Source of the DNA: an uncultured Gammaproteobacteria bacterium
Lineage (GTDB): Bacteria > Pseudomonadota > Gammaproteobacteria > CAWCPV01
Length of the DNA: 64,000 nucleotides
Assembly (NCBI GenBank): GCA_963797555.1
Contig: CAWCPV010000007.1
Coordinates: 224,001 to 288,000 of the forward strand
Direction of reading: 5' to 3'
This document shows, in pieces, positions 7,284 to 25,872 of this stretch. The notes beneath the pieces were generated by a model. It searched no databases. It was not told where the DNA came from and saw only the letters and a list, made by a program, of their open reading frames with translations. The translations under genes and the position numbers were made by a program. Positions within the stretch are counted from its first letter, which is position 1; each line of letters opens with the position of its first letter.

Positions 7284-7636
7284 TAAGCACGGTACCTTGC
7301 AGTCTATCCCAAACCGCGACGGCCTTGCCAGATACTGCTGCGGGCCTGGAGTTCCGTCCCGACCGCGGTAGGCCCCTGTACCGCAGGGCCTAGCAGTGGC
7401 AGTGCCGCGTGTGCGTGGAGCCCGCCGAGGTGGCGATCCGGGGCCTGGCCTGACGCTGGGGGGGCTCCTTCGGCATGCGCGGTAAGCTTTTGGCACCGCA
7501 GGTGTTCCCTCGGCCTGGGTCGCATGTGGCGTCGGCTTGCTCCGATGCCTTTTCTCGGCGCCGCGCGAGCTTGGACGGTATCCGGCGGACGATGTCCCGC
7601 CGCGACGTGACGCACCGAACTGCCGCTCCTCTGCGC

Positions 7637-8513
7637 TCAAGGCGAGCCCAGCAGAGGGAGCGACTGAGCGTCCAACCGCTTCGCAAGCTTCTTGTATCCG
7701 TCAATGCTCGGATGGATCTCGTTCATCCAGTCTCCGTCTTCACCGAGGCTTCCCAGCTTCGCACGCTTGAGCGTCCCCCGCGTATCGACGACATGGAATT
7801 TCGTAAGGCATGCGGTCCCGTGGCGAGGGCGAGGATCGCCTCGGCAAGCTCGTCGACCAGATAGTCCGAGACGCCGATCCAGTCGGTCTGCGGCACCTGA
7901 GCATCGGTAAGTGCCCTGAACAGCCAGGGGCCGAGAACCGGCACGAGAATAAATCGCGCCTGTGCATTCCGGGGCGTGGGGTAATCATACGTGTGGGTCA
8001 GAATCGGTTTGCCGATCGCGGTGCTATCTGGGGCGTCTCGCAGGGCCACGATGCTCCGGTAGCCAGTCTGAACGTCATCCTTCAGCCGCTGCAGCCTGGC
8101 CTGGTCGCAGTAGTCGGCCGGTCCAGCGGTAGTTGCAGACCGCGCGGCCGGCGGCAGCAGAATATCGTCCGCATCGTCGATCAGGTCGTTGCCGCCCCCG
8201 CTCAGAAGAATCAGATCCCACTGCACTAGCTGCCAAACTTGGGACTTAGCGCGTCCCGGAGCGCCCGGTCCCTGGTGAGCGTGCTCATCCGGCGGATGGT
8301 ATCCCCCGGGAAAGCACAGTTGATGATCACTGTGTTTCCGTCGAAACGCATCGAGAACAGCAGGTTAAACGTTGGGATTCCGCCCAGAGTGAACCAGGAA
8401 TCGCCCTCCGCCAGTATGCGCAAGTCGAAGCTCGAAGAGTCGGGATTGTGCTCAGGGTCAGTCCGGTCCGCCTGGGACCAGCTTATGACCTCGGGGCGCC
8501 ACTTCTTTGCCAT
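7637..8513 (-). pseudogene. SGNH/GDSL-type hydrolase, two frameshifts (~8225, ~7800)
   Basis: AEGDSWF, SGGGND, HTYDY, WMNEIHP blocks spread over three frames. Confidence 0.7.
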
Positions 8514-8711
8514 GTCTTGCTCCTTGCGCGCCGGACGGGCGAACTGTGCCCGCGGTTCCCCCGGACCAGCCAGATGCTGCTCCTCGCCTGACGGCCACCG
8601 TCACGTCGACACCCATCGGTATCAAGCCTCGCCCGGCGGCAACGTTACCGCACGGGGTGCCACGGCCACGCGGCCTTGCGTGCGCGTACGTTGGGGTTTA
8701 TCCACCCATGA

Positions 8712-8938
8712 GAGTAAGCATCCTCCGGCAAAGCCGGAGGCTTCCCCGTCGCTGGCCCCTCAAAGGGGCCTTTCCGCGACGGACAGAAGAACGGCTCCCG
8801 TTCGTGACTCATCGACACATGAAGTGATGCACCAGTCCCTGAGCGGAACCACAAGTCGCCTCAAACAGCCCGACTCCCTGCACTGTCAAACTTTGGATGT
8901 CGCCCCGGCAGAGCCGGGGGTTTTCCCGCCATAATAAC
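8712..8938. mobile_element. Non-autonomous IS200/IS605-type derivative (PATE-like)
   Basis: Two end-type hairpins CCTCCGGCAAAGCCGGAGG (8722-8740) and CCCCGGCAGAGCCGGGG (8903-8919), no transposase between them. Confidence 0.6.
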
Positions 8939-8947
8939 AGAGGCTCC

Positions 8948-9280
8948 TCATCGGGGACGCCGTCGAGTCGCAGAGCATACAACCGAAGGCCCATGTCGTC
9001 TCCGCCTATTGTCAGCATTCATCGGAAGCGAGCCGCTTACGATGACCTTGCCCGAGAAGTCCCCCGCCGGATTCAACACGTCGTCGATTCCGAACCAGTG
9101 CACAGCCAACAAGAGGGGATCCGCTTCCTGCGCGGCCTCACTCGAGCGGGCGTCCCGCGCGAGCTTCTTCAGTTTCTCCTTGCTGCGCGCATAGCTGAAT
9201 ACCACCTGATGCCCCGCACGCGCGAAGAGCGTCCCGAGTTTGCCACCCATCAATCCCGAACCTAGAATGCCAACTCGCAT
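8948..9280 (-). pseudogene. NADP oxidoreductase (F420-dependent family), 3' truncated
   Basis: MRVGILGSGLMGGKLG Rossmann start, LLAVHW, GKVIV; sequence degenerates after ~90 aa. Confidence 0.7.
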
Positions 9281-9312
9281 ACTGCTCTCCCTCGCCTTTT
9301 GCTGCCAGCATC

Positions 9313-10444
9313 GGCGTTGTCGACAAAATGCCCGTCGCCTCTTGACAAGGGGGTGCTGAGCGCTTGGAGAGAAGTTGCTGTAGGGCGTATCATCGCGGCC
9401 AACGCGAGCGTTGGGGAGGGAGTGCGATGAGCAGCGGAGCCCAGTAGCAGGAGCGGCGCATTACCAACTGGTCGGAGTACAACAGGGCGCTGACCAACCG
9501 AGGGTCGCTGACCTTTTGGCTGGGTGAGGACCTCTTGGAGTTGTGGTTCAACCGCACGCCCAAGGCTGCGGGCAGCCGAGGGCTGCACCGCACCTTCAGC
9601 GACCACGCCATCCAGAGGTGTCTGACGTTCAAGGCCGTGTTCCACCTCGCCTACCGGCAGACCGAAGGGTTTGTGAACTGCGTGTTTGCTCTGGGTGGAA
9701 TTGGGCTCAAGGCCCCGGACTATACCGCGCTCGCCAAGCGGGCGAAGCATCTTGAAGTGGCCATCCCGGTGCTTGCGCGGGACGAACCGGTGCACGTGGT
9801 GGTGGACTCCACAGGGCTCAAAGTCTACGGAGAAGGTGAGTGGAAGGTGCGCCAACACGGCATCGGCAAGCGGCGCACCTGGCGCAAGCTCCACCTTGCA
9901 GTAGACGCCGAGCGCCACGAGATCCTGGGCGTCGAGCTCACCCGCTTGGAGAGCGCCGACTGCGAGGTGCTCCCCACCCTGCTTCAGCAAAACGCCGACC
10001 AGCCCCTAGCCAGCGTGAGTGGCGACGGCGCCTACGATACTCGTGAGACTTATCGGGAGGCCGAAGCCCGCGGGGCCCGCCGCGGTGGTGCCCCCGCGCC
10101 GCGGGGCGGCGCTCTGGGAGCCCCTGGGCACCCGCGCAACGCCGCGCTCGAGGCTTGCCGCACCCAAGGCCGTTCGGCCTGGAAACGCACCGTCGGCTAT
10201 CACTGGCGCAGTAACGCCGAGACCGCCATGTTTCGCTACAAACAGATCCTCGGCCCCTGCCTCAGCGCCCGTCTGCCACACACCCAGATCACCGAGGCCT
10301 ACGTGGGTGTCTCCGTGCTCAACCGCATGAACAGGCTCGGTCTGCCCAAACGCGCCAAATAGGGGGAAAACCGGGGAAACCCCTCCTGGGGCCAGGCCCA
10401 TAGTACATTTAATGCGCCCATAAATTTATTTGATCGACAACGCC
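9313..10444 (+). mobile_element. IS5 family (IS903 group) element
   Basis: IRs GGCGTTGTCGACAAAAT / GGCGTTGTCGATCAAAT; 9-bp TSD GCCAGCATC (9304-9312, 10445-10453). Confidence 0.92.
9427..10362 (+). pseudogene. IS903-like transposase (early TAG and local frameshifts)
   Basis: TNWSEYNRALTNRGSLTFW, VVDSTGLKVYGEGEW, WRKLHLAVD, GDGAYD, AETAMFRYK. Confidence 0.85.
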
Positions 10445-10519
10445 GCCAGCATCTGCCTCGCACGTGTTGCCTTGTTCAGTGAGCTACGGAATGCAACCAG
10501 AGAACACGGTCTTTGCCGC

Positions 10520-11779
10520 TTAGGTGCCTATGCAAAATAACTTGAACATCTCAAGGGCGCGAGTGGGGTTGGGAGACAAGCTGTAGTTCCATTCGCCGTG
10601 AAAGTCACAGCGCGTGATAGCCAGGGTTTTCATGTCTTGGTCCGTGACTTTTCTGCCGGTCTCGTAGCTGCCCTTATCGAGTTCGGCCCGAATGGCAAGC
10701 CCTTGGCGGGTCCGAGTGTGGCTGATCAAGGAGACGATGGCCATTTGGCTGGTCAAGGGACGGCCACGCCAGTTCTCGGTGATGTGACAGAACATGCGGT
10801 GCTCGATCTTGTTCCACTTGCTCGTTCCAGGCGGAAAGTGTCTGATGTGGATAGCGATGCCTAGCTCGTCGGCAAGCTGTTGCAGCATCAGCTTCCACAA
10901 CCGGACTCGGGCGCCATTGCTGCCACCACCGTCGGCGGTGATCAGCATCTCCGAGGCCCGGGGATAGACTTGGCTGCCCATGCGGTACCACCAACGCCGC
11001 AGGGTCTCGACGGAGAATTCCGCCGTGTCGTGGGTAATGCCGCGACTTCCCCAGCCTTCGTTGCGAGCGATGTCGTAGACCCCGTAGGGGATGGCCTTGC
11101 CGAGTTCTTGGTCGACAAAGTCATGCAGGTTGACTTGCTCGGGCTCACCCTTGCGCTGCCATTCTCGGCCACTGTTCTTGAACCGCCCGATGAGATCCTT
11201 CTTTTGGGTATCGACCGAGACCACGGGCAGACCCCGCTGCAGAAAATCACTCACGCTCGCACCGATGAACTCGAACTGCGCGTTGCGATCGGGATGGTCC
11301 GAGCCTTCCCGAGTCTTGCGATTGGACTGCATGCTGTAGCCGAGCTCATCGAGCAGTCTCCACACCGTCGCTTGCGACACCCGATGCCCCCTGTCCCGAA
11401 GCTCTGCCGCCAGCTTGGTCGTGCTCTTGCAAGTCCAGCGCAACGGCGACATCGGATCGCCTCGGGTTACCGGATCGAGCAGTCGATCCAGATCCGAGAG
11501 CAGCGTCTCGTCCTGCTCCTGTTGTCGCTTACGCCCACCGCCGGGTCTTCGAATCCTCCGGCGCTCCTCCACCCGCGCCGCTTCCCGACCAGCTCTCCTC
11601 AGCTCCTGCATCCCCGCGTGTACGGTGGTGCGAGATACACCGGCTGCCTTGGCTACACGGCTCACGCCTCCATACCCCAAAGCCGTCGCCTCGGCTGCCA
11701 GACAGACTCGCAACGAGCGCTCGTCCAATAGCGGTGTGAGTATCCGGTACTTCACCCGCAGGGCATCCTCTGCCACCAT
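10520..11779 (-). CDS. ISAzo13 family transposase
   Basis: TRGDPMSPLRWTCKS, SVDTQKK, ITADGGGSNG, HFPPGTSKWNKIEHR, FHGEWNY. Confidence 0.92.
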   Translation of the reverse strand: MVAEDALRVKYRILTPLLDERSLRVCLAAEATALGYGGVSRVAKAAGVSRTTVHAGMQELRRAGREAARVEERRRIRRPGGGRKRQQEQDETLLSDLDRLLDPVTRGDPMSPLRWTCKSTTKLAAELRDRGHRVSQATVWRLLDELGYSMQSNRKTREGSDHPDRNAQFEFIGASVSDFLQRGLPVVSVDTQKKDLIGRFKNSGREWQRKGEPEQVNLHDFVDQELGKAIPYGVYDIARNEGWGSRGITHDTAEFSVETLRRWWYRMGSQVYPRASEMLITADGGGSNGARVRLWKLMLQQLADELGIAIHIRHFPPGTSKWNKIEHRMFCHITENWRGRPLTSQMAIVSLISHTRTRQGLAIRAELDKGSYETGRKVTDQDMKTLAITRCDFHGEWNYSLSPNPTRALEMFKLFCIGT

Positions 11780-15394: not shown

Positions 15395-16822
15395 TCAGGG
15401 GATCTCCAGAGCGACGAAGTGCAGTTGCCCGTTACGCTCGATCTGCAAGGCCACCGCGTCGCCCGCCTTCATGCTGCTCAGCAGCTCGCGCAGGCGTGCT
15501 GTGCTTGAGACCCGCTCGCGGTTCACGCGGTAGATGATGTCGCCGGCCTTCAGGTCTTCCTCGAATGCCGGTCCCTCCTCCAGGGTGGCGGCCACCAGCA
15601 CGCCCCCGGTCCCGCGCGTTTGGTTGAGCTGTTCGCCCAATCGATGGTCTACGTCCATGACGAAGATTCCGAGCTGAGGAACGAGGTTCCGCTCGTCGAT
15701 GGCCGCCGCGACTGTGGCGGACTCGGACGCTCGCTTGCGCGCTTCGACGGCAAACGGAAGTTTACGTCCGTCGCGCAGGATGTTTAGCTGCAGCGTCGAC
15801 CCGATGGGGGCGCCGTAGAGACTGAGGTTGAGCTGCGGGAGATTCACCACAGGCTTCCCCTCGATGGAGTCGATGACGTTGCCGGGCTGTATGCCGGCCT
15901 TCTGCGCCGCGCTATCTGGCTCCACATCCCGCACCATCACGCCGGCGGTCGTCGGTAGTGCCCAGGCGGCTGCGAGCGTCGGGGTGACCGTGCGCGCCTC
16001 GATACCGATGTCGCTGCGGACGACGCGCCCGCTCCGCCGCAGTTGCCGCACCACGGCGGAGACCAGGTTGCTCGGGACTGCGAATCCGAGCCCTTCATTT
16101 CCGCCGGATTGCGAGAGAATGAGTGTATTGATCCCCACCACTCGTCCCGCCGAATCCACGAGTGGCCCGCCGCTGCTCCCCGGATTGATGGGCGCGTCCG
16201 TCTGAATGTAAGCGATCGGATCCTCTGGATTGAACTGTCTGGCGGTCGAGCTGACGACGCCGAAGCTCACGGAGTCTTGCAAGCCCATCGGACTTCCGAA
16301 TGCCAGCACCACCTGTCCCTGCTGGACCTGGTCAGAATCCCCCAGCGGGAGGTAGGGGAGCCCTGCCTGCGCCACCTCGAGGAGTGCGACGTTGGCATCG
16401 GAGTCCAGGCCCACGACTCGCGCGGGCAAGACCTTTCCTCCGCCCGGGCTCCAATGGCCCAGCGCCGATGCAAGGGCCGTGGAGGGGAGGGTCACCTGCG
16501 CGTGATCGGAGCCGGCCACGACGTGGGCGTTGGTGACGATGTATCCGGCCGGGTCGATGATAACTCCCGAGCCGGAGATCTGCTCTCGGCTCACCACTCC
16601 CTGCTCCGCATTGTCCTCATCCGGCTCGCGGAAGCCCATGGTCACCACCTTAACCACGCAAGGATGGACCCTTCGGGCGAGCTCTTGGACGGACTGGCTC
16701 AGCGCTTGCAGCGATGCCCGCTCAGGCACGGGCGAGTCCAATGGTTCCCCGCAAGTGACGCCCGCAATGAGGAGGGCCAGGAGGGGCAGGCCAATCGCCG
16801 TGGGTCTCATTGCGGTCTTCAC
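15395..16822 (-). CDS. HtrA/DegP-like trypsin protease with two PDZ domains
   Basis: Signal peptide; GSGVII, TNAHVV, IQTDAPINPGSSGGPL; two PDZ domains. Confidence 0.88.
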   Translation of the reverse strand: MKTAMRPTAIGLPLLALLIAGVTCGEPLDSPVPERASLQALSQSVQELARRVHPCVVKVVTMGFREPDEDNAEQGVVSREQISGSGVIIDPAGYIVTNAHVVAGSDHAQVTLPSTALASALGHWSPGGGKVLPARVVGLDSDANVALLEVAQAGLPYLPLGDSDQVQQGQVVLAFGSPMGLQDSVSFGVVSSTARQFNPEDPIAYIQTDAPINPGSSGGPLVDSAGRVVGINTLILSQSGGNEGLGFAVPSNLVSAVVRQLRRSGRVVRSDIGIEARTVTPTLAAAWALPTTAGVMVRDVEPDSAAQKAGIQPGNVIDSIEGKPVVNLPQLNLSLYGAPIGSTLQLNILRDGRKLPFAVEARKRASESATVAAAIDERNLVPQLGIFVMDVDHRLGEQLNQTRGTGGVLVAATLEEGPAFEEDLKAGDIIYRVNRERVSSTARLRELLSSMKAGDAVALQIERNGQLHFVALEIP

Positions 16823-17403
16823 GAGGCGTGGAGCATCGGCCAGGGAGCGGATCCCACCAGGATGGTGCTGGGACCTCGCTGGCTCGTTGCGCTCATGTCA
16901 GGGCGCGGCGCCATCTCGTGGCAGCCCCTCCAATGCGCCGTGCAGGCCCCCTCCTGCGGCCGACAAGCGGCGAGAGGCACGGCAGCGTTTGGGATCACGG
17001 GGCGAAATCCCGACGGCGAAGCCCCGCGCCTCGTTGCGCGGAGCAATGGCGCGGTTCGACGGCGCGGCTTCGGCCTCGCCGAAGAGGCGTCTGTACGGAA
17101 TAAATGGTCCAGGGTTGGCACGGCGGTCTGGCCTCGCGGCTTTGCACTTTGGCGGAGTTCGTGGGTGGAGGGTATTTTCCTCTCAACACCTGTCTCCTGC
17201 CAGGGCTGTCGGCACGGAGATAGCCAGTGCAGCGGCGCACCGGACCGATGGCTCGGCGGGATACATCGCCGCCAGTGGCCGATGGAGGCTGTCCAGCAGC
17301 TTCTGGCAGGCCGCAGGCCGTTGTATCCACGACCAGCTGACCGAGGTCAAAGAGCCACAGGGGAATGCAACTGCTTCGTGCCCGGCCGGACCACCTCGAC
17401 CGA

Positions 17404-17568
17404 GATCGCGTGAATAGGTTGTACGCCACCCCTTGGGGCATCCCGCGGACGTGCCGAATGGTGGTCCTGCCATTCGGTCGCTCCTCGGCTATTCTACGGG
17501 GTGCTCCTTGCCGCCGCGCTCCGTGCGCCACGCTCTCGCGCCCCTCGCGGCGATTTCAACACAAGCTC
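17404..17568 (+). repeat. MITE-family copy with one inner hairpin module
   Basis: GTGAATA...TGTACGCCACCCCTTGGGG...CCGAATGG..CCATTCGGTCGCTCCTCG...ACAAGCTC followed by TGA. Confidence 0.7.
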
Positions 17569-18547
17569 TGAGGCCGTCGTCGGCCCGCGGATGCTCCGCT
17601 CGGGAAGCCGCAATTGACTGCGCCGGCGCGCCGCTTTGCAAGCATCCGCATCGACGCCTGCCGCACGCTAGCGGAAATGATAGGCGAGCGCCAAATTGAC
17701 GCTTACATCCTCGATGGGAAATTCTGTTTTGCCTTGGCATGTTCGTGGGACCCCGCAGGCTGTAGGAAGACAAGAAGTTGTTGTACCGCGCCAAAATGCT
17801 CATAGACCAGCGGTCCCCGAACCGCCACCCCGCTCCGGCCTCGACCTCCACGCCGACGGCGACGTTGCTCGACCAGCCGAGATTCCGTTGATTGCCGAGG
17901 GAAGTGAACTCGGGCACTCCATTGACAAGCCTGACGTTGTCGAAGCGTACGATGGCTTTCTGGGAGGCAAAATTGACCGACGGTCCCACGCCCACCTCCA
18001 GCTTCCCATCCGGCGCCTCACCGTCGGCAAGCCATCCATGGCGGATTTTGAGCAGGATGCCGACGGAATCGAGCGACCCGATGCTGTGCAAGGTGCTGTC
18101 GCCCGAAAGATTGGTGTCCCGTTGTCCCGGACTGGAGAGAACCTCCGAGTAGCTTCCGGGACTCGACCCGAGGCCGAGGTCCTGGTGACTGTAGTCGAAG
18201 GACACGCCGAGATTCTTCGCCCAAGCACCGAGGAAGCTGAACCACGTTCCTAGAGTCGCCCCATACGCCACAGCGGCGTCCGGTGTTGCGCGGCTGCCGG
18301 GGTCCGCGGTGGTGGTCAGGGGGGATGCGGAAACGGCGGCGACTTCGCCGGGCGTGACCTTCGCGGTCGAAGCGGGCCCCACGCCCCCGACGCCGATGCG
18401 CACCTCTGCGAAGACCCTATCGAGGTCCGTCAAGACTGCCGGCGTGCCCGTCGAGACGTCCCCGGTTCTCTGGGCCAAGACCGCAGGCGCCCCGCCCAGG
18501 GGAAGGGCGGATAGGAGAGCCATGGCACCACGGATCGGGGCTTTCAT
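17489..18547 (-). CDS. Putative outer-membrane beta-barrel protein (3' end uncertain)
   Basis: Signal peptide; alternating beta-strand pattern (LGVSFDYS, LEVGVGPS, VEAGAGWRFGDRWSMSILARY). Confidence 0.5.
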   Translation of the reverse strand: MKAPIRGAMALLSALPLGGAPAVLAQRTGDVSTGTPAVLTDLDRVFAEVRIGVGGVGPASTAKVTPGEVAAVSASPLTTTADPGSRATPDAAVAYGATLGTWFSFLGAWAKNLGVSFDYSHQDLGLGSSPGSYSEVLSSPGQRDTNLSGDSTLHSIGSLDSVGILLKIRHGWLADGEAPDGKLEVGVGPSVNFASQKAIVRFDNVRLVNGVPEFTSLGNQRNLGWSSNVAVGVEVEAGAGWRFGDRWSMSILARYNNFLSSYSLRGPTNMPRQNRISHRGCKRQFGARLSFPLACGRRRCGCLQSGAPAQSIAASRAEHPRADDGLRACVEIAARGARAWRTERGGKEHPVE

Positions 18548-19066
18548 GGTTTTCCTCAGTGCTCAGGCGAGTGGTCCACCGCCTCCGGAGTCGCTCCTGG
18601 GGAATCACAGGACAGCCTGCGGGTCGCGCCTGCCGGAGACGCCAGGGTAGCAATTGCCGCTGCGGCTCGCTGCGCGCGGACGGAGCACCTCGCTGGCGCC
18701 GGGTTTGCGGCGCTCGTATGGTTGGAGAGGAAAGAGAGCCAGCGTGCACTCTAGCGAGTCGTTCCGTTCGAGTGCTATCGGGGAGATCCCTGGGCGAGTC
18801 GAGGGTTAACCCTTTGCACGGGCGGCGTGTGGGAGCCCGAAGTGGGGGCGCTCGTGGCGCGCCGAACGAAGCTGTAGGCTGTGCAGCGGCGCGGGAAACG
18901 GCATTGGGCTTGGCTTGGCGTGACGGCAGCGGCGAGTGGCCGCCGCGGCGGGGGCCGTCAGGAGCCCGACAAGGGCTCACCCATGCCGTCGCCTGGCTAG
19001 TGGTCCGGGTCGACGCGACCGTGTGGAGTGGCTATTCTGTTCCGCAATAGGCTTGCGCGCTGCAAA

Positions 19067-20652: not shown

Positions 20653-20979
20653 GCTCGTCTCCGGTTGGGGGTGGTACCCCTTGTTTGACCGCGGACCGGC
20701 GCTCGGTTTCGGCTTGGTCCAGCTCTTGTTCGCTGGCTTTCTGTTCAATCGCTGGCCCGCCGACCTGATGGCGCTGGTGTTGGCGATACTGCCGGACGAT
20801 CGGCAGGTTTCCCGCTAGTGTGCTCGACAGGGCCAACACGGTACCCGCCCGCCGCAAGGCTTGACGCCATCCTCGGTTACGGCGACGATTCCATCCATCA
20901 ACGCGTCGAATATCGAATATCCAGCCCAGCACGAAAACCTTGCTCAAGAATAAGGGGCGATTCGTAAAGGGAGAGACTC

Positions 20980-23900
20980 GTGTCCGAACTGCTGCCCGGG
21001 CAGCACGCACAGATCCTCGCCGACAAGCTCTATGACGGGCAGCTTGCGCTCTTTGTCGGCGCCGGGATCTCGCATCTGGCGAATGGCCCGGACGGACGGC
21101 GACTGCCTCTATGGAAGGGTCTTGCGGAACAAGTCGCTGCGGCCTGTCATGAGGACCTGGACTCCTATCGCCACATCCTGGATCTGTTCGATGCCATCGT
21201 CTATGGCCAGAGCCGCATGACGCTGGAGGAGGCGGTGCGGCAGGCGCTGGACGACCGCGGCTTCGAGCTTTCCGACGCCCACCTGGCCCTCAAAGACCTC
21301 CCCTGGGCGGCGGTGCTCAGCACCAACTACGATGGCCTGCTCGCGCGGCTGCTCGGCGAAGACCCTGTCTACGAGGAACAGGACTACGACCGGCTCCAGC
21401 TTGCCCCCGACCGTCAGCCGCACCTGTTCCAGATCCACGGCACCCTCGCCCGGCAGCACACGCTCACCCGCGAGGACTACCGCCTGTGGTCCGAAAAGCA
21501 CCCGTGGGCCTTCCGCCATCTGGAGGGCATCGTCCTCAACAAGACCGTGCTGTTCGTCGGCTATTCCCTGTCCGATCCGCATCTCGATAGCGTGCTGGCG
21601 ACAGTACGGGGAATCACGAAGGGGCGGAAGAAGCGCCTTTACGCCCTGGATGTGGAAGATGAAGGATGGACAGAAGGCGCTCCTCGACCGCCGCGACAAG
21701 ATCGAGGCGGTCCCCATCGAGAAAGAGGAAGACTGGGTACACGCCTTCCGGCAGGTCGCCGCGTGTTTGGAAAAGCGGCGGCGCGGCGCCCCCGCGCCCC
21801 CGGCGGCGGTGGCCGCGGATGCCTTCGCTTACGCCCGCGCCCAATATCTGGCGGGTCTCGAAGCCCATTACGGCGTCGCCAACCTTCAGGGGCTATATCA
21901 GTGGGGCGCGGGGTATGCTCGGGACGACGTGCTGCTGGACGAGGTCTTCGTCGAGCCGGACCTCGAACGCGCGGAGCGCGGCGCCCGAGCAGGTGAGGGA
22001 GCCGTCGCCGAGACGGAAGCGCTGGAGCGGGCAGGGCTGTCGTTTGCCATGCGCGCACGCCGGCGCGGAGAGCAGGCGCCGACTGCGAGCCGGACTCCGG
22101 CTTTCCAGGTGCTGGCCCAGGAACAGCGCGTGCTCATCGTCGGTGCGCCGGGACAGGGCAAGTCCACGCTGCTGGGCGCTTGGCTGCTCTCGGTCGCCGC
22201 TCGATGGCGCGAGCAGCCGGCCCTGCACCCGCTGCCGGTGCTGGTACGGCTCGCGGAATGGGAGAGCGACCCGCAGCGCGGCGAGGGGTGGCTCCGAGAG
22301 CACGTGAGCAGCAAACTGCCTCGGCTCGCCGAGGTGGGCTCGGCGGCGGTCGAGGCGTGGCTCCGGGGCCCGGTGCTGTGGCTGCTGGATGGCATCGACG
22401 AGGTGCGCGACCCCCACGAGCGCGGTCGGCTGCTAGCCGAGGTCCGGGCGACAGCGGCGATGCGCCCGCAGGATCGCTGGGCGGTCACGACCCGCCCGGC
22501 CGGGGAGCCGGCCGGCGGCATCGGCAGCGGCTGGCTGCGCTGCGAGCTGCCCAGCCTGTCCGACCCGCAGGTCGAGCAGGTGCTGGCGAAATGGGCGGGG
22601 GTGTTGCAGCGCAAGGAGCAGTTGGTGCTGGACCACCGGCAGATGGCTAGCGCCCTGAAAGCGGACCCTGGGCTGCGGCTGATGCGCGGCAATGGTCTGC
22701 TGCTGACCATGGCGGTGCTGTTCTACAAGTCGCGCAAGCGGCTCCCGCACCACCGCTGGGAGTTCTATGATGGCTCCGAGCAGGCGCTGCGCGATGGCTG
22801 GGTGCGCCATCGCCTGCAACAGGCGCAGCGCTACCTGCCCGGCGATTACCTGCCCGAACTCTTGGAAGTGCTCGCTCTCGATGGCATGGTCGAGGGCAGC
22901 GTGCTGTTCGCTGAAGAGGATGTCAAACAGGAGGCGGACAGCCTGCTGCGGGCACGGGGTTACAGCGGGGGTGAGCGGGACCAGGAGGTTGCGCGCCTGC
23001 TGGAGGCCGCCCGCGACCTGATTGGCGTCCTCGTGGAGCAGGGTCCCAGCCGATTCGGCTTCCTGCACGTCACCTTTCAGGAGTTCTATGCCGCCCGCGC
23101 GCTGGTCCACCGCAGCCAGAACGCCGCCGGGTACATCAAGGGCTACTGGGACCACCCGGACTGGCGCGAGGTCTGGCCGCTGTACCGGCTGGGCGTTCAG
23201 GCCGACCCGGCGCGGACGGCCGAGCTGTTCCAGACCATCCTGGCCGATGCTCACCCGCTGGATGAGTACCTGTTCCGCCCGCAGCTCGCCTGCCTGCGCC
23301 TGCTCGGGACAGGATCGGCCCCCGTTAGCCCCCCGGAGACAGGAGTGCTGGACTGGGCCCGCTCCATCATCGAGCGGACCACCCGCCCCTTCCAGGAAGT
23401 ATGCACCATCGTGCAGCGCTGGGAGCGGCCACTAGGTACCGAGTTGCGGGAAGCCCTGCTCGGGCGGCTCGCCGACCAGGACTGGAACGTGCGGTGGGCG
23501 GTGGCGCGGGCGCTCGCGGCGGCGGTGAGTGAGCCCGCGGTGCGGGAAGCTCTACTCGGGCGGCTCGCCGACGAGGACTGGAACGTGCGGTGGGCGGCGG
23601 CGCAGGCGCTCGCGGCGGCGGTGAGTGAGCCCGCGGTGCGGGAAGCCCTGCTCGGGCGGCTCGCCGACCAGGACTGGAACGTGCGGGGGGCGGCGGCGCA
23701 GGCGCTCGGGGCGGCGGTGAGTGAGCCCGCGGTGCGGGAAGCTCTACTCGGGCGGCTCGCCGACGAGGACTGGAACGTGCGGTGGGCGGCGGCGCAGGCG
23801 CTCGGGGCGGCGGTGAGTGAGCCCGCGGTGCGGGAAGCTCTACTCGGGCGGCTCGCCGACGAGGACTGGAACGTGCGGTGGGCGGCGGCGCAGGCGCTCG

Positions 23901-24448
23901 CGGCGGCGGTGAGTGAGCCCGCGGTGCGGGAAGCTCTACTCGGGCGGCTCGCCGACGAGGACTGGATCGTGCGGTGGGCGGCGGCGCAGGCGCTCGGGGC
24001 GGCGGTGAGTGAGCCCGCGGTGCGGGAAGCCCTGCTCGGGCGGCTCGCCGACCAGGACTGGAACGTGCGGGGGGCGGCGGCGCAGGCGCTCGGGGCGGCG
24101 GTGAGTGAGCCCGCGGTGCGCGAGGCCCTGCTCGGGCGGCTCGCCGACCAGGACTGGAACGTGCGGTGGGCGGCGGCGCAGGCGCTCGGGGCGGCGGTGA
24201 GTGAGCCCGCGGTGCGCGAGGCCCTGCTCGGGCGGCTCGCCGACCAGGACTGGAACGTGTGGCGGGCGGCGGCGCAGGCGCTCGGGGCGGCGGTGAGTGA
24301 GCCCGCGGTGCGGGAAGCTCTACTCGGGCGGCTCGCCGACCAGGACTGGAACGTGCGGTGGGCGGTGGCGCGGGCGCTCGCGGCGGCAGTCGCCTCCGAG
24401 AAGTTTGGGATACCGGCTCGCGATCTAGGCGACGTGATGCCCTGGTAG
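20980..24448 (+). CDS. NLR-like SIR2-NACHT-HEAT repeat protein (apparent +1 frameshift in CCC at 21644-21646)
   Basis: SIR2-like: FVGAGIS, STNYD, IHG, FVGYSLSDP; NACHT: GAPGQGKST, WLLDGIDE, FLHVTFQEFYAA; ten 32-aa HEAT repeats. Confidence 0.85.
23435..24394 (+). repeat. Ten tandem 96-bp coding repeats (HEAT/PBS-lyase-like, EPAVREALLGRLAD[QE]DWNVRWAAAQAL[AG]AAVS)
   Basis: GAGCCCGCGGTGCG recurs every 96 bp (23531, 23627, ...); units nearly identical at DNA level. Confidence 0.95.
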
Positions 24449-24532
24449 CTGGCGTCAACACGAAGGGAATGCAGTGAGACGCGGGAGGGCCGGCTAGCCG
24501 ATGCGCTTCTCCAAACCGCGCAACCGGTGACA

Positions 24533-25042
24533 ATGGCCGAGCCTCGAGCAATTCGCATCGTCCGCCGGATCAGCCTGATTTCCACAGGCGTCACGCTCGG
24601 CGCGACCGTGGCCCACGTGCTGGAGCTTCCCAACAAGCTCGCACTCGACGGGCCGCTCTGGCTCGCCGTCCAGCAGCACCTTTACCGCGGGTGGGGACCG
24701 TTCATCGGGCCGTTCGAGGTCACGGCCATCGTTTCGACGTGGCTGCTGCTCTTGCTAGTCCGTAAACGGCCGCCAACCTTCCGGTTGACGCTCCTCGCGG
24801 CGCTCTGTCTCAGCGCTGCACTGGCGATCTTCTTCGCTTTGAACGCGCCGGTGAACGCTGCGTTCGCGGCCTGGACCGCTGAAACGCTGCCGCCGAACTG
24901 GCCGACGTACCGTTTGCGCTGGGAGGTCGGCCACGCCGCGAGCTTCGTGCTGGCTTTCTTGGCGTTCGTCGCGCTGCTGCGTGGTCTGGTCGCCGATGCG
25001 GTCGCCAAGGCGTCCCAACCAGGAGGAACGCAGTCAATCTAG
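24533..25042 (+). CDS. DUF1772/anthrone oxygenase-like membrane protein, copy A
   Basis: AHVLELPNK, QQHLYRGWG, NAPVNA...W...RWEVGH; four TM segments. Confidence 0.7.
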   Translation: MAEPRAIRIVRRISLISTGVTLGATVAHVLELPNKLALDGPLWLAVQQHLYRGWGPFIGPFEVTAIVSTWLLLLLVRKRPPTFRLTLLAALCLSAALAIFFALNAPVNAAFAAWTAETLPPNWPTYRLRWEVGHAASFVLAFLAFVALLRGLVADAVAKASQPGGTQSI

Positions 25043-25377: not shown

Positions 25378-25872
25378 ATGCTGCTTCGCATCGTCCGCTG
25401 GATCAGCCTGGTCTGCACAGGCGTCACGCTCGGCGTGACCGCGGCCCACGTGCTAGAGCTTCCCAACAAGCTCGCGCTCGGCGGTCCGCTCTGGCTCGCC
25501 GTTCAGCAGCACCTTTACCGCGGGTGGGGACCGTTCATCGGGCCGTTCGAAGTCGCGGCCATCGTTTCGACGTGGCTGCTGCTCTTGCGGGTCCGCAAAC
25601 GGCGGCCGGCCTTCCGGTGGACGCTCCTCGCGGCGCTCTGTCTCAGCGCTGCACTCGCGGTGTTCTTCGCCTTGAACGCACCGGTGAACGCTGCGTTCGC
25701 GACCTGGACCGCTGAAACGCTGCCGCCGGACTGGCCGACGTACCGCTTGCGTTGGGAGGTCGGCCACGCTGCGAGCTTCGTGCTGGTGCTGGTGGCGTTC
25801 ATCGCGCTGCTGCGCGGTCTGTTCGCCGATGCGGTCGACGAGGCGTCGCAGAGTAGGGGAACGGGGTCATGA
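25378..25872 (+). CDS. DUF1772/anthrone oxygenase-like membrane protein, copy B
   Basis: Highly similar tandem paralog of 24533-25042. Confidence 0.7.
   Translation: MLLRIVRWISLVCTGVTLGVTAAHVLELPNKLALGGPLWLAVQQHLYRGWGPFIGPFEVAAIVSTWLLLLRVRKRRPAFRWTLLAALCLSAALAVFFALNAPVNAAFATWTAETLPPDWPTYRLRWEVGHAASFVLVLVAFIALLRGLFADAVDEASQSRGTGS

What the first reader, a model, noticed from the sequence alone, without database searches (positions are those of the whole stretch)
20980..24448. Bacterial NLR-like receptor: SIR2 effector, NACHT switch and a near-clonal HEAT-repeat sensor
Seen: SIR2-like motifs (GAGIS, TNYD, IHG, GYSLSDP), NACHT Walker A/B and the FxHxxFQE motif, then ten 32-aa HEAT repeats. The two ORFs join into one ~1155-aa protein if a single C is removed from the CCC at 21644-21646. 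Known: SIR2 NADase effectors fused to STAND/NACHT NTPases act as antiphage abortive-infection receptors (Avs and bacterial NACHT families). Inference: this is a stand-alone immune receptor whose sensor resembles the highly conserved internal repeats of fungal NLRs (HET-E-like), an architecture I do not recognise as a characterised bacterial system.
Basis: partly seen in the sequence, partly recalled or inferred. Interest (0 to 1): 0.82.

Follow-up and report, generated by a model that had tools for sequence, protein, structure and literature searches.

The report
SIR2–NACHT–HEAT bacterial NLR-like gene
This is one gene for a bacterial NLR-like protein with an NAD-destroying SIR2 head, a NACHT switch and ten almost identical HEAT repeats; it belongs to an untested family, and the one-base break in it is probably an assembly error.

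Summary
Frame 1 (20980-21645) encodes a SIR2_2 domain. Frame 2 (21647-24448) encodes the last part of that domain, a NACHT NTPase and ten 32-residue HEAT units (23447-24406; 96-nt period, 95% matches, no indels).

In 28 of 34 homologues SIR2 and NACHT sit in one polypeptide, and the sequence across the junction matches the window only if one C of 21644-21646 is ignored. The nearest relative (86% and 79% identical on the two sides) is unbroken there.

A frame-switch scan of the source genome found 175 candidates. Of the 10 I checked, 8 are clearly split genes, including mfd and acrB. The break is therefore more likely a consensus indel than a dead gene. No reads were available to settle this.

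The family is found in MAGs of many phyla, has no conserved neighbour, and has 67 clusters at E<=1e-30. Catalytic and nucleotide-binding residues are intact. Other members also carry homogenised 96-nt arrays. Changes within arrays concentrate at the positions that vary in alphaRep binders.

The most likely function is a single-chain, NAD-depleting NLR-like immune receptor, comparable to Avs5 and DSR2 but a member of neither. This is inferred, not shown. Novelty: new member of a known kind. Interest is moderate.

The parts
20967..20975 (+). Shine-Dalgarno-like AAGGGAGAG; its GGGAG core ends 6 nt before the GTG start
   Evidence: Read directly from the sequence. The promoter scan found nothing above shuffled controls.
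20980..21645 (+). Frame-1 part of the gene: SIR2 domain, residues 1-222 (P0001). Catalytic N116 is at 21325-21327 and H153 at 21436-21438.
   Evidence: Pfam SIR2_2 1.4e-19. PADLOC ThsA SIR2 5.6e-24 and Dsr2 8.2e-20. The alignment to ThsA 6lhx puts N116 and H153 opposite ThsA N112 and H152. That those ThsA residues are catalytic is recalled; entry 8bto carries A at position 112.
21644..21646 (+). CCC run holding one base more than the homologues' reading frame allows; this is the site of the +1 frame break
   Evidence: Translations compared with unbroken homologues. P0162 spans the site in one frame. The Pfam SIR2_2 match runs across this point in unbroken homologues.
21647..22126 (+). Frame-2 continuation: the last strand/helix elements of the SIR2 domain, then a helical linker with the conserved YxWGAGYARDDV...VFVEPDL block
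   Evidence: SIR2_2 profile positions beyond about 118 lie past the junction in P0004, P0098 and P0162. Secondary structure; nearly invariant columns.
22127..22594 (+). NACHT nucleotide-binding domain: Walker A 22142-22168 (K172), Walker B 22376-22405, TTR sensor arginine 22487-22498
   Evidence: Pfam NACHT, residues 161-316 of P0002. G171, K172, D248, G249, D251, E252, R283 and P284 are invariant in 33 sequences. Motif coordinates.
22595..23446 (+). Helical and winged-helix domains of the NOD, including the FLHVTFQEF histidine motif (23060-23086), and the N-terminal cap of the solenoid
   Evidence: AF2 model with pLDDT 87.9. Foldseek matches to NLRC4, NOD2 and NLRP3. F472, H474, Q478 and E479 are nearly invariant.
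23447..24406 (+). Ten tandem 96-nt / 32-residue HEAT units. Units 2=5 and 3=7 are identical; the first and last units share WAVARALAAAV.
   Evidence: HEAT_2 9e-78. alphaRep matches up to 3.3e-57. Each unit is modelled as two helices.
24407..24448 (+). C-terminal tail ...GIPARDLGDVMPW and the stop codon (24446-24448)
   Evidence: The tail is shared with the nearest relative P0047.

Best explanation
The two ORFs are one gene for a protein of about 1155 residues, a STAND/NLR-like protein of an uncharacterised SIR2-NACHT-HEAT family. The extra C at 21644-21646 is most likely a consensus indel of an error-prone assembly (my estimate about 0.65-0.7), so the gene is probably intact in the organism.

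Proposed mechanism, all of it inferred:
1. The HEAT solenoid binds a trigger, most likely a phage protein.
2. This releases the ADP-locked NACHT module.
3. Nucleotide-dependent oligomerisation brings the N-terminal SIR2 domains together and switches on NAD+ hydrolysis.
4. NAD+ depletion stops the infected cell.

The sensor array was recently amplified and homogenised from within. Arrays in this family evolve in concert, and replacements concentrate on one face of the second helix.

Shown: the domains, intact catalytic and nucleotide-binding residues, fused homologues, and the repeat structure. Inferred: binding, oligomerisation, NADase activity and defence.
For: Architecture:
- Pfam SIR2_2, NACHT and HEAT_2.
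- AF2 model with pLDDT 87.9 and pTM 0.83, with NOD plus solenoid.
- Foldseek matches to NLRC4, NOD2, NLRP3, PP2A-A and alphaRep.

One gene:
- 28 of 34 homologues carry PF13289 and PF05729 in one protein.
- 14 of 16 strong genomic loci have the SIR2 motif and Walker A in one open frame.
- The junction peptide is conserved.
- The nearest relative P0162 is continuous across it.
- The break lies inside the SIR2_2 domain.

Assembly error:
- The frame-switch scan found 175 candidates in 5.35 Mb and recovered this site to within 11 nt.
- Of 10 candidates checked by Pfam, 8 are clearly split single genes: an E3-type Pyr_redox_2, DUF6079, ISL3, IS630, AcrB, Mfd, a transglutaminase, and DUF4062-NACHT|FGE-sulfatase. 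Two are ambiguous.
- Four genes carry three consecutive switches.

Active-looking sites:
- N116 and H153 align with ThsA N112 and H152.
- K172, D248, D251, E252, R283 and H474 are invariant or nearly invariant.

Selection still visible in the array:
- Scaffold codons have pN/pS 0.33.
- All 36 pairwise differences at the six alphaRep-type positions are non-synonymous.

Mechanistic analogy:
- EfAvs5 (SIR2-NOD-sensor) defence needs SIR2 N141 and the Walker A and B motifs, and it depletes NAD+ (passages and abstract).
- DSR2 pairs SIR2 with an alpha-solenoid C-terminal domain that binds the phage tail tube (abstracts in the listing).
Against: - No member of this family has been tested. Three literature searches for the domain combination listed no paper on it (two returned nothing).
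- There is no defence-island context. Neighbours within about 6 kb are DegP, SPFH, MEKHLA, a dehydrogenase and ABC-transport genes. At 5 homologous loci, 1 of 10 neighbours (HicB) is conflict-related.
- PADLOC has no model that matches the NACHT-HEAT part; there were only two marginal P-loop hits.
- The frameshift could not be checked in reads.
- The frame-switch sites show no homopolymer enrichment, so the kind of error is not identified. A genome with many real pseudogenes is not excluded.
Confidence: 0.6

Rival explanations
1. The frameshift is real. This copy is a recently inactivated pseudogene of the SIR2-NACHT-HEAT family, and the repeat expansion may have happened in a gene that was already dead.
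For: - The sequence as given is broken inside the SIR2 domain.
- Defence genes and transposases are often lost, and several other frame-split genes in this genome are of those kinds: IS630, ISL3, HsdR, DUF6079 and the second NACHT gene.
- No read evidence contradicts it.
Against: - There is only one lesion in 3.5 kb, and no stop in either frame part.
- Scaffold codons of the array still show pN/pS 0.33.
- The codon score of the frame-2 part is the second highest of the 64 calls in the window (300.8 against 320.8).
- Housekeeping-type genes (mfd, an E3-type oxidoreductase, acrB) are broken in the same way, and four genes carry three consecutive switches. That pattern fits consensus errors better than decay.
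- The nearest relative is in frame.
Confidence: 0.27
2. The split is functional. A truncated SIR2 protein and a separate NACHT-HEAT protein, starting at ATG 21650 or 21659, would work as a two-gene system, or the ribosome would shift frame at the site.
For: - In-frame ATG codons follow the break.
- The database's gene call for this window is a 929-residue NACHT-HEAT protein (P0003).
- Six of 34 homologues lack a SIR2 hit in the same protein.
Against: - The ATG at 21650 encodes the conserved WMW motif of the fused proteins.
- The break removes the last part of the SIR2_2 domain and adds a 117-residue out-of-frame tail.
- I see no slippery heptamer at CTT TAC GCC CTG.
- The nearest relative has no shift.
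- Of the SIR2-less homologues I could place, one is a gene call at a contig end and one locus is at a contig end plus broken (L024 and L021).
Confidence: 0.03
3. The protein is an intact NLR-like switch, but its role is not phage defence. It could instead act in kin or self/non-self discrimination, programmed cell death, or sensing of a host metabolite or protein.
For: - Neither this locus nor the 5 loci examined lies in a defence island.
- Repeats of high internal conservation are best known from fungal allorecognition NLRs.
- No relative was found in phage records, and no close relative in plasmid records.
Against: - The SIR2 domain is closest to the antiphage NADases ThsA and DSR2.
- The patchy spread over many phyla with different neighbours at every locus fits a horizontally moving single-gene defence system.
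- Bacterial NACHT proteins from several clades that were tested do protect against phage (passages).
Confidence: 0.1

Closest known systems
Avs5 / SIR2-STAND (EfAvs5)
   Same: [quoted passage not shown] SIR2 Asn, Walker A Lys and the TTR arginine are needed in EfAvs5 (passages), and the corresponding residues are present here.
   Different: Avs5 has an unusually short C-terminal sensor; here the sensor is a ten-unit HEAT solenoid. No sequence link was found. No Avs model of PADLOC matched. No PDB chain matched the NOD at E<=0.1. No chain named Avs5 appeared at E<=10 with a full-length homologue. I did not verify that either library holds Avs5.
DSR2 (defence-associated sirtuin 2)
   Same: A SIR2 NADase head joined to an alpha-solenoid, HEAT-like sensor. 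The SIR2 parts are homologous: PADLOC Dsr2 8.2e-20, NCBIfam Dsr2 2.1e-19, PDB DSR2 2e-14 with the family profile.
   Different: DSR2 has no STAND NTPase between head and sensor. The match covers only Dsr2 profile positions 11-207 of 1215 and scores 69 bits against a cutoff of 1400.
Bacterial NACHT (bNACHT, NLR-related) proteins of Kibby et al.
   Same: N-terminal effector, central NACHT and C-terminal repeat sensor. SIR2 and HEAT are both listed among the domains found on bacterial NACHT proteins.
   Different: The domains named in the legend for the tested proteins (LRR, HEAT, REase, TIR, TM, NNH1, NCH1) do not include SIR2. Which clade this family falls in could not be checked, because the supplementary tables are closed.
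Fungal NLRs with repeats of high internal conservation (HET-E / HET-D type)
   Same: NACHT plus a C-terminal array of near-identical repeats. Arrays are homogenised within a gene and differ between genes. Changes concentrate at surface positions.
   Different: The repeats here are HEAT, not WD40, ANK or TPR. The effector is SIR2. Variation in repeat number between strains, and unit shuffling, were not observable here.
Thoeris ThsA
   Same: Best-matching SIR2 domain: PADLOC 5.6e-24; 6lhx 1.1e-13 alone and 2e-30 with the family profile.
   Different: Only ThsA residues of about 14-220 are matched. There is no SLOG/STALD domain and no TIR (ThsB) gene among the neighbours.
alphaRep / PBS-type HEAT-like repeats
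   Same: The repeat units are closely similar: 3.3e-57 for the window's array, 3.4e-66 for the profile, and 33-37% identity in Foldseek. The family's most variable positions (14, 17, 13, 21) are positions that differ between units of alphaRep binders.
   Different: alphaReps are designed 31-residue units without an NTPase or effector.

Membership tests
Bacterial NACHT / NLR-related proteins | NACHT module above Pfam's gathering score, with Walker A lysine and Walker B acidic residues | tested here: met
   PF05729 scores 38.1 bits against a cutoff of 26.7. K172, D248, D251 and E252 are invariant in 33 sequences. Fold matches to NLRC4, NOD2 and NLRP3.
Bacterial NACHT / NLR-related proteins | Tripartite layout of N-terminal effector, NACHT and C-terminal sensor in one protein | tested here: met
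   Met in 28 of 34 homologues and 14 of 16 loci. In the window it is met only if one base at 21644-21646 is ignored.
Bacterial NACHT / NLR-related proteins | Protects against phage | not testable with these tools
   Needs expression and phage challenge.
Avs5 (SIR2-STAND) | N-terminal SIR2 with the catalytic Asn, followed by a STAND NOD | tested here: met
Avs5 (SIR2-STAND) | Short C-terminal sensor, and sequence relationship to Avs5 | tested here: not met
   The sensor is a solenoid of about 330 residues. No PADLOC Avs hit. No PDB chain at E<=0.1 for the NOD. None named Avs5 at E<=10. Whether the libraries contain Avs5 was not verified.
DSR2 | Full-length match to the Dsr2 equivalog (SIR2 + MID + CTD) | tested here: not met
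   69.1 bits against a cutoff of 1400; only profile positions 11-207 of 1215 are matched.
Thoeris (ThsA/ThsB) | SIR2 fused to SLOG/STALD, and an adjacent TIR-domain ThsB gene | tested here: not met
   The ThsA model is matched only at positions 14-220 of 478. None of the 10 neighbours carries a TIR domain.
NLRs with repeats of high internal conservation (fungal HET-E/D type) | Repeat units about 80-90% identical within one protein | tested here: met
   Mean pairwise unit identity is 0.88 in protein and 0.954 in DNA over units 1-9. TRF gives 95%.
NLRs with repeats of high internal conservation (fungal HET-E/D type) | Positive selection at ligand-contact positions and unit reshuffling between alleles | tested here: inconclusive
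   pN/pS at the six alphaRep-type positions exceeds that of the rest in all 8 arrays with at least 5 units. The values are 0.82-2.62, or undefined in the window where there are 0 synonymous differences. The permutation test of the window's variable positions gives p=0.12. No alleles were available.
HEAT_2 / PBS-type HEAT-like repeats | Helix-turn-helix units matching PF13646 | tested here: met
   9e-78. Two helices per unit in the model.

The most novel reading that the evidence does not exclude
The HEAT arrays of this SIR2-NACHT family are a bacterial counterpart of the fungal HET-type sensor. Units would be repeatedly amplified, homogenised and reshuffled within a lineage, with replacements focused on one face of the second helix (positions 13, 14, 17, 21, 25). 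New binding specificities would then arise by repeat turnover rather than by slow point mutation. On this reading the window's ten-unit, 95%-identical array catches that process just after an expansion from the roughly three units seen in its nearest relative.
Probability: 0.35. Interest if true: 0.6.

Novelty: new member of a known kind. Interest (0 to 1): 0.4.

Why it matters
If the family works as proposed, it adds a further effector-sensor pairing (SIR2 with a HEAT solenoid) to bacterial NLR-like immunity. It would link the Avs5 logic (SIR2 switched on by a STAND NTPase) with the DSR2 logic (SIR2 controlled by an alpha-solenoid sensor).

The homogenised arrays are the more interesting part. 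They suggest that some bacterial NLR sensors diversify by repeat turnover, as fungal allorecognition NLRs do. The units are close to alphaRep scaffolds, whose binding surface is well understood, so specificity could be read and re-engineered.

There is also a practical lesson. This genome carries many frame-split genes, so broken genes in it should not be read as pseudogenes without read support.

Tried and rejected
**Reads.** The look-up of sequencing runs listed 3 runs, each holding 0.06 of the sampled words and none holding the window. Laying them at 80% likeness gave short contig pieces of relatives. Run X1's eight listed pieces carry roughly 8-14% other letters. None of the 22 listed pieces bridges 21640-21650, and 88 further pieces were not shown. 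No indel row appears at the site, which the tool says proves nothing. No verdict on the frameshift, on habitat or on expression.

**Kind of error.**
- The longest homopolymer within 25 nt of the 175 switch points is no different from random positions in the same ORFs (mean 3.46 against 3.40; share with runs of 5 or more 0.103 against 0.101).
- The 135:40 excess of +1 over +2 switches is not interpretable. The scan needs the old frame to stay open for 90 nt, and that favours one direction in a GC3-rich genome.

**Variable positions.**
- The window's seven variable positions (11, 14, 16, 17, 19, 21, 24) do not have significantly higher family entropy than random sets (p=0.12).
- That 4 of the 7 fall in the family's top 5 is a post-hoc cut.

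**Context.**
- No ORF cluster other than the gene itself, its shadow ORFs and one generic four-locus cluster (not identified) is shared among the window and 16 loci.
- No tRNA in 10000-32000.
- Promoter and terminator scans are at or below shuffled expectation.
- GC rises to 0.77 in the array, but the flanks are ordinary.

**Mobile carriers.**
- tblastn of the NOD region found only distant NACHT genes (all under 60%, listed rows 24.6-27.5%) in 46 plasmid records. None covered 80% of the query.
- Nothing was found in phage records.

**Relatives.**
- The 40 genomes searched are related at class level only and hold no orthologue. 7 of 41 have any match, counting the window's genome, and the best is 31% identity over the NACHT module.
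- That best match and the tally include G039, an unpublished genome. The statement that no orthologue was found in relatives rests partly on it.

**Other checks.**
- Programmed frameshifting was considered and rejected (see rivals).
- The 2.2-kb stretch 16822-19028 has no confident gene call, and its four longest ORFs have no Pfam hit.
- Supplementary tables of Kibby et al. and of the 2026 STAND survey are closed. They may already list this family's clade or sensor cluster.
Full report
**What is in the sequence.**
- One search lists a frame-1 ORF at 20980..21996 and a frame-2 open frame that ends at 24448.
- Frame 1 translated up to 21645 gives 222 residues (P0001). Frame 2 from 21647 gives 933 residues (P0002).
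- Pfam finds SIR2_2 in P0001 (1.4e-19). In P0002 it finds NACHT (1.7e-9, 38.1 bits against a cutoff of 26.7, residues 161-316) and HEAT_2 (9e-78).
- PADLOC and NCBIfam match P0001 only to the SIR2 heads of ThsA (5.6e-24) and Dsr2 (8.2e-20, 69 bits against a cutoff of 1400). PADLOC matches P0002 only by two marginal P-loop hits.
- TRF reports one array at 23445-24387 with period 96, 9.8 copies, 95% matches and no indels.
- In register there are ten 32-residue units from 23447 to 24406. Units 2 and 5 are identical in DNA, as are units 3 and 7.
- The first and last units share WAVARALAAAV, while the eight inner ones share WAAAQAL. This suggests the array grew from within.

**The frame break.**
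- A word-indexed search with the non-repeat part of P0002 returned 34 homologues at E<=1e-116, apart from the window's own gene call. They are 39-57% identical, and 28 of them carry both PF13289 and PF05729 in one protein of roughly 620-1570 residues.
- Across the junction they read ...GREKRLYAWMW...LLDRRDKIEA.... The window reads ...GRKKRLYA in frame 1 and WMWKMKDGQKALLDRRDKIEA... in frame 2.
- The exhaustive phmmer search produced a closer relative. P0162 is a 177-residue fragment that is 86.5% identical to P0001 residues 112-222 and 78.7% identical to P0002 residues 1-47, in a single frame.
- In unbroken homologues the SIR2_2 match runs past the junction, to profile positions 124-140 of 141. 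The break therefore cuts the SIR2 domain itself.

**Is the break real?**
- No public run holds the window, and the contigs of three weak holders did not resolve the site.
- I therefore examined the assembly as a whole. It has 5.35 Mb in 20 contigs, is 84.6% complete and has 64.6% GC.
- A codon-score scan looked for places where coding signal passes from one frame to another at least 90 nt before the first frame's stop. It recovered this site at C7:245656, against a true position of 245645, and found 175 candidates in all.
- I checked ten by Pfam: five drawn at random and five taken from the twelve with the largest combined ORF length (picked by me, not the top five).
- Eight are single genes cut in two:
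  - an E3-type oxidoreductase (Pyr_redox_2 positions 119|145)
  - DUF6079 (593|593)
  - an ISL3 transposase (125|142)
  - an IS630 transposase (HTH|DDE)
  - AcrB (137|149)
  - Mfd
  - a transglutaminase/DUF2126 protein
  - a second NACHT protein
- Two are ambiguous: dCache|GGDEF and HsdR|Schlafen.
- Four genes carry three consecutive switches.
- This pattern, in genes that otherwise keep full coding signal, fits consensus indels better than decay.
- It is not proof. The sites show no homopolymer enrichment, and the direction bias is a property of the scan.
- I put the artefact reading at about 0.65-0.7.

**The family.**
- Against 1.84 billion cluster representatives, the NOD region has 67 hits at E<=1e-30, 3279 at 1e-10 and 10366 at 0.001.
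- A scan of one genome per species found 36 loci, 16 of them strong. All 16 are MAGs. Their labels include Rhodospirillales, Acetobacteraceae, Thermoanaerobaculia, Hydrogenedentales, Trueperaceae, Nitrospiria, Oxalobacteraceae, Planctomycetota, Salinisphaerales and Verrucomicrobiaceae.
- In 14 of the 16, a SIR2 motif and Walker A lie in one open frame. One of the other two is at a contig end. The other, in a 2.9-Mb contig, is broken into several frames.
- No flanking ORF family is shared among the window and these loci.
- The window's neighbours are DegP, SPFH, MEKHLA, a dehydrogenase, two Anthrone_oxy-like paralogues and ABC-transport genes.
- Ten neighbours at five other loci are a mixed set with one HicB antitoxin.
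- The gene thus behaves as a stand-alone unit dropped into unrelated contexts, but it is not visibly in defence islands.
- No orthologue was found in 40 class-level relatives (this includes the unpublished G039), in plasmid records (distant NACHT only) or in phage records.

**Functional sites and fold.**
- P0001 aligns with ThsA (6lhx) over residues 20-221. N116 and H153 lie opposite ThsA N112 and H152. That those residues are catalytic is recalled; the N112A entry 8bto is consistent with it.
- In the 33-sequence alignment A1, several residues are invariant or nearly invariant:
  - the Walker A residues G171 and K172
  - the Walker B residues D248, G249, D251 and E252
  - R283 and P284 of the TTR motif
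  - F472, H474, Q478 and E479 of the winged-helix histidine motif
- The AlphaFold2 model of P0002 built with A1 has mean pLDDT 87.9 and pTM 0.83. It shows a three-layer NBD, helical and winged-helix domains, and a regular two-helix-per-unit solenoid.
- Foldseek against the PDB returns PP2A PR65 and alphaRep proteins for the solenoid, and NLRC4, NOD2, NLRP3 and NAIP/NLRC4 for the NOD.
- By sequence, the NOD has no PDB relative at E<=0.1.
- The family profile hits alphaRep (3.4e-66), ThsA (2e-30) and DSR2 (2e-14).

**The repeats.**
- Mean pairwise unit identity is 0.88 in the window. It is 0.66 in the nearest relative's three units, 0.58-0.65 in other high-identity members that printed, and 0.20-0.42 in the printed low-identity members (some columns of the table were cut off).
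- Identity between units of different proteins is 0.22-0.53, and 0.73 to the nearest relative. Arrays are therefore homogenised within lineages.
- I ran TRF on 4 of the 16 strong loci, chosen for high protein-level periodicity:

| Locus | Period | Copies | Matches | Note |
|---|---|---|---|---|
| L030 | 96 nt | 2.8 | 96% | contig ends inside the array |
| L025 | 96 nt | 7.2 | 85% | contig ends inside the array |
| L033 | 96 nt | 4.9 | 84% | |
| L032 | 96 nt | 15.1 | 72% | |

- The nearest relative's C-terminal fragment (P0047, 82% identical over 438 residues) has only three units before the same ...EKFGIP...MPW tail. Either the window's lineage expanded the array or that assembly collapsed it.
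- Within 22 homologues that have at least 8 in-register units, the most variable unit positions are 14, 17, 13, 21 and 11.
- Positions 13-26 form the second helix of each unit in the model.
- From the alignments to alphaRep binders printed, the positions that differ between alphaRep units correspond to positions 13, 14, 17, 18, 21 and 25 here. That these form the alphaRep binding surface is recalled.
- With that independently defined set, pN/pS is higher at these six positions than at the other 26 in all 8 arrays with at least 5 units (0.82-2.62 against 0.33-0.82).
- In the window, all 36 pairwise differences at these positions are non-synonymous, while the scaffold codons give 0.33.
- Caveats: few underlying mutations, non-independent pairs and no multiple-hit correction. 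Values near 1 may mean relaxed constraint rather than positive selection.

**Comparison with what is known.**
- Kibby et al. (2022 preprint, passages read) describe bacterial NACHT proteins with N-terminal effectors, including sirtuins, and C-terminal repeat sensors, including HEAT. They show phage defence for several. The legend for the tested set does not name SIR2.
- EfAvs5 is a SIR2-NOD protein with a short sensor. It depletes NAD+ after filament formation and needs its SIR2 Asn and Walker motifs (abstract and passages).
- DSR2 joins SIR2 to an alpha-solenoid that binds tail tube protein (abstracts in the listing).
- Dyrka et al. (2020 preprint, passage read) note 80-90% internal identity in WD and TPR repeats of bacterial NLRs and link it to the fungal diversification mechanism.
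- A 2026 preprint surveys 589 STAND clades and 684 sensor clusters (passages). Its tables, which may include this family, are closed.
- Searches for NACHT + SIR2 + HEAT repeat + phage and NACHT + sirtuin + HEAT repeats + bacterial found no paper. bNACHT + SIR2 found four, none on this architecture by title or abstract.

**Verdict.** The domain reading and the one-base repair are confirmed by homology. The gene belongs to a widespread but untested SIR2-NACHT-HEAT family and is best read as a single-chain, NAD-depleting NLR-like receptor. It is a new member of a known kind. The near-clonal HEAT sensor is real in this assembly and is the extreme case of a family-wide tendency. That tendency is the part worth following up.

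Noticed in passing
whole genome G000 (window = C7:224001-288000): A codon-score scan finds 175 places where coding signal changes frame well before a stop. Of 10 checked, 8 are clearly split genes (including mfd, acrB and an E3-type oxidoreductase). Four genes carry three consecutive switches. Broken genes in this assembly need read support before they are called pseudogenes.
   Followed up: partly
G000:C4:520675-524078 (- strand; L020, L002): A second NLR-like gene: DUF4062 - NACHT in one frame and an FGE-sulfatase domain in the next. This is a sensor type described for bacterial NACHT proteins. It is also frame-split.
   Followed up: partly
window 24527-25042 and 25378-25872 (+): Two tandem paralogues of a small membrane protein with weak Anthrone_oxy matches (3.6e-4 and 4.7e-5, below the cutoff) lie directly downstream of the NLR-like gene. 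The ORF list shows closely similar protein ends and similar antisense ORFs beside both copies.
   Followed up: no
window 16822-19028: A 2.2-kb stretch with no confident gene call in my codon-score pass. Its four longest ORFs have no Pfam hit.
   Followed up: partly
G000:C3:465400-470000 (L013): A DUF6079 gene with three successive frame switches within about 800 nt, at roughly 467274, 467587 and 468041.
   Followed up: partly
G000:C6:78290-82130 (L018): A type I restriction R subunit (HSDR_N, ResIII, SWI2_SNF2) is followed in another frame by a Schlafen AlbA_2 domain. This is either a fusion broken by a frame switch or two overlapping genes.
   Followed up: no
L034 (MAG contig of 2.9 Mb), 7320-10815: A homologue of the SIR2-NACHT-HEAT gene is broken into at least four frame pieces in another highly contiguous MAG. 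The same kind of problem appears to affect a second assembly.
   Followed up: no
L025 7144-7838 and L030 9912-10183: In two short-contig MAGs the contig ends inside the 96-nt HEAT array. Homogenised arrays in this family appear to break or truncate assemblies, so unit counts in database proteins may be too low.
   Followed up: partly
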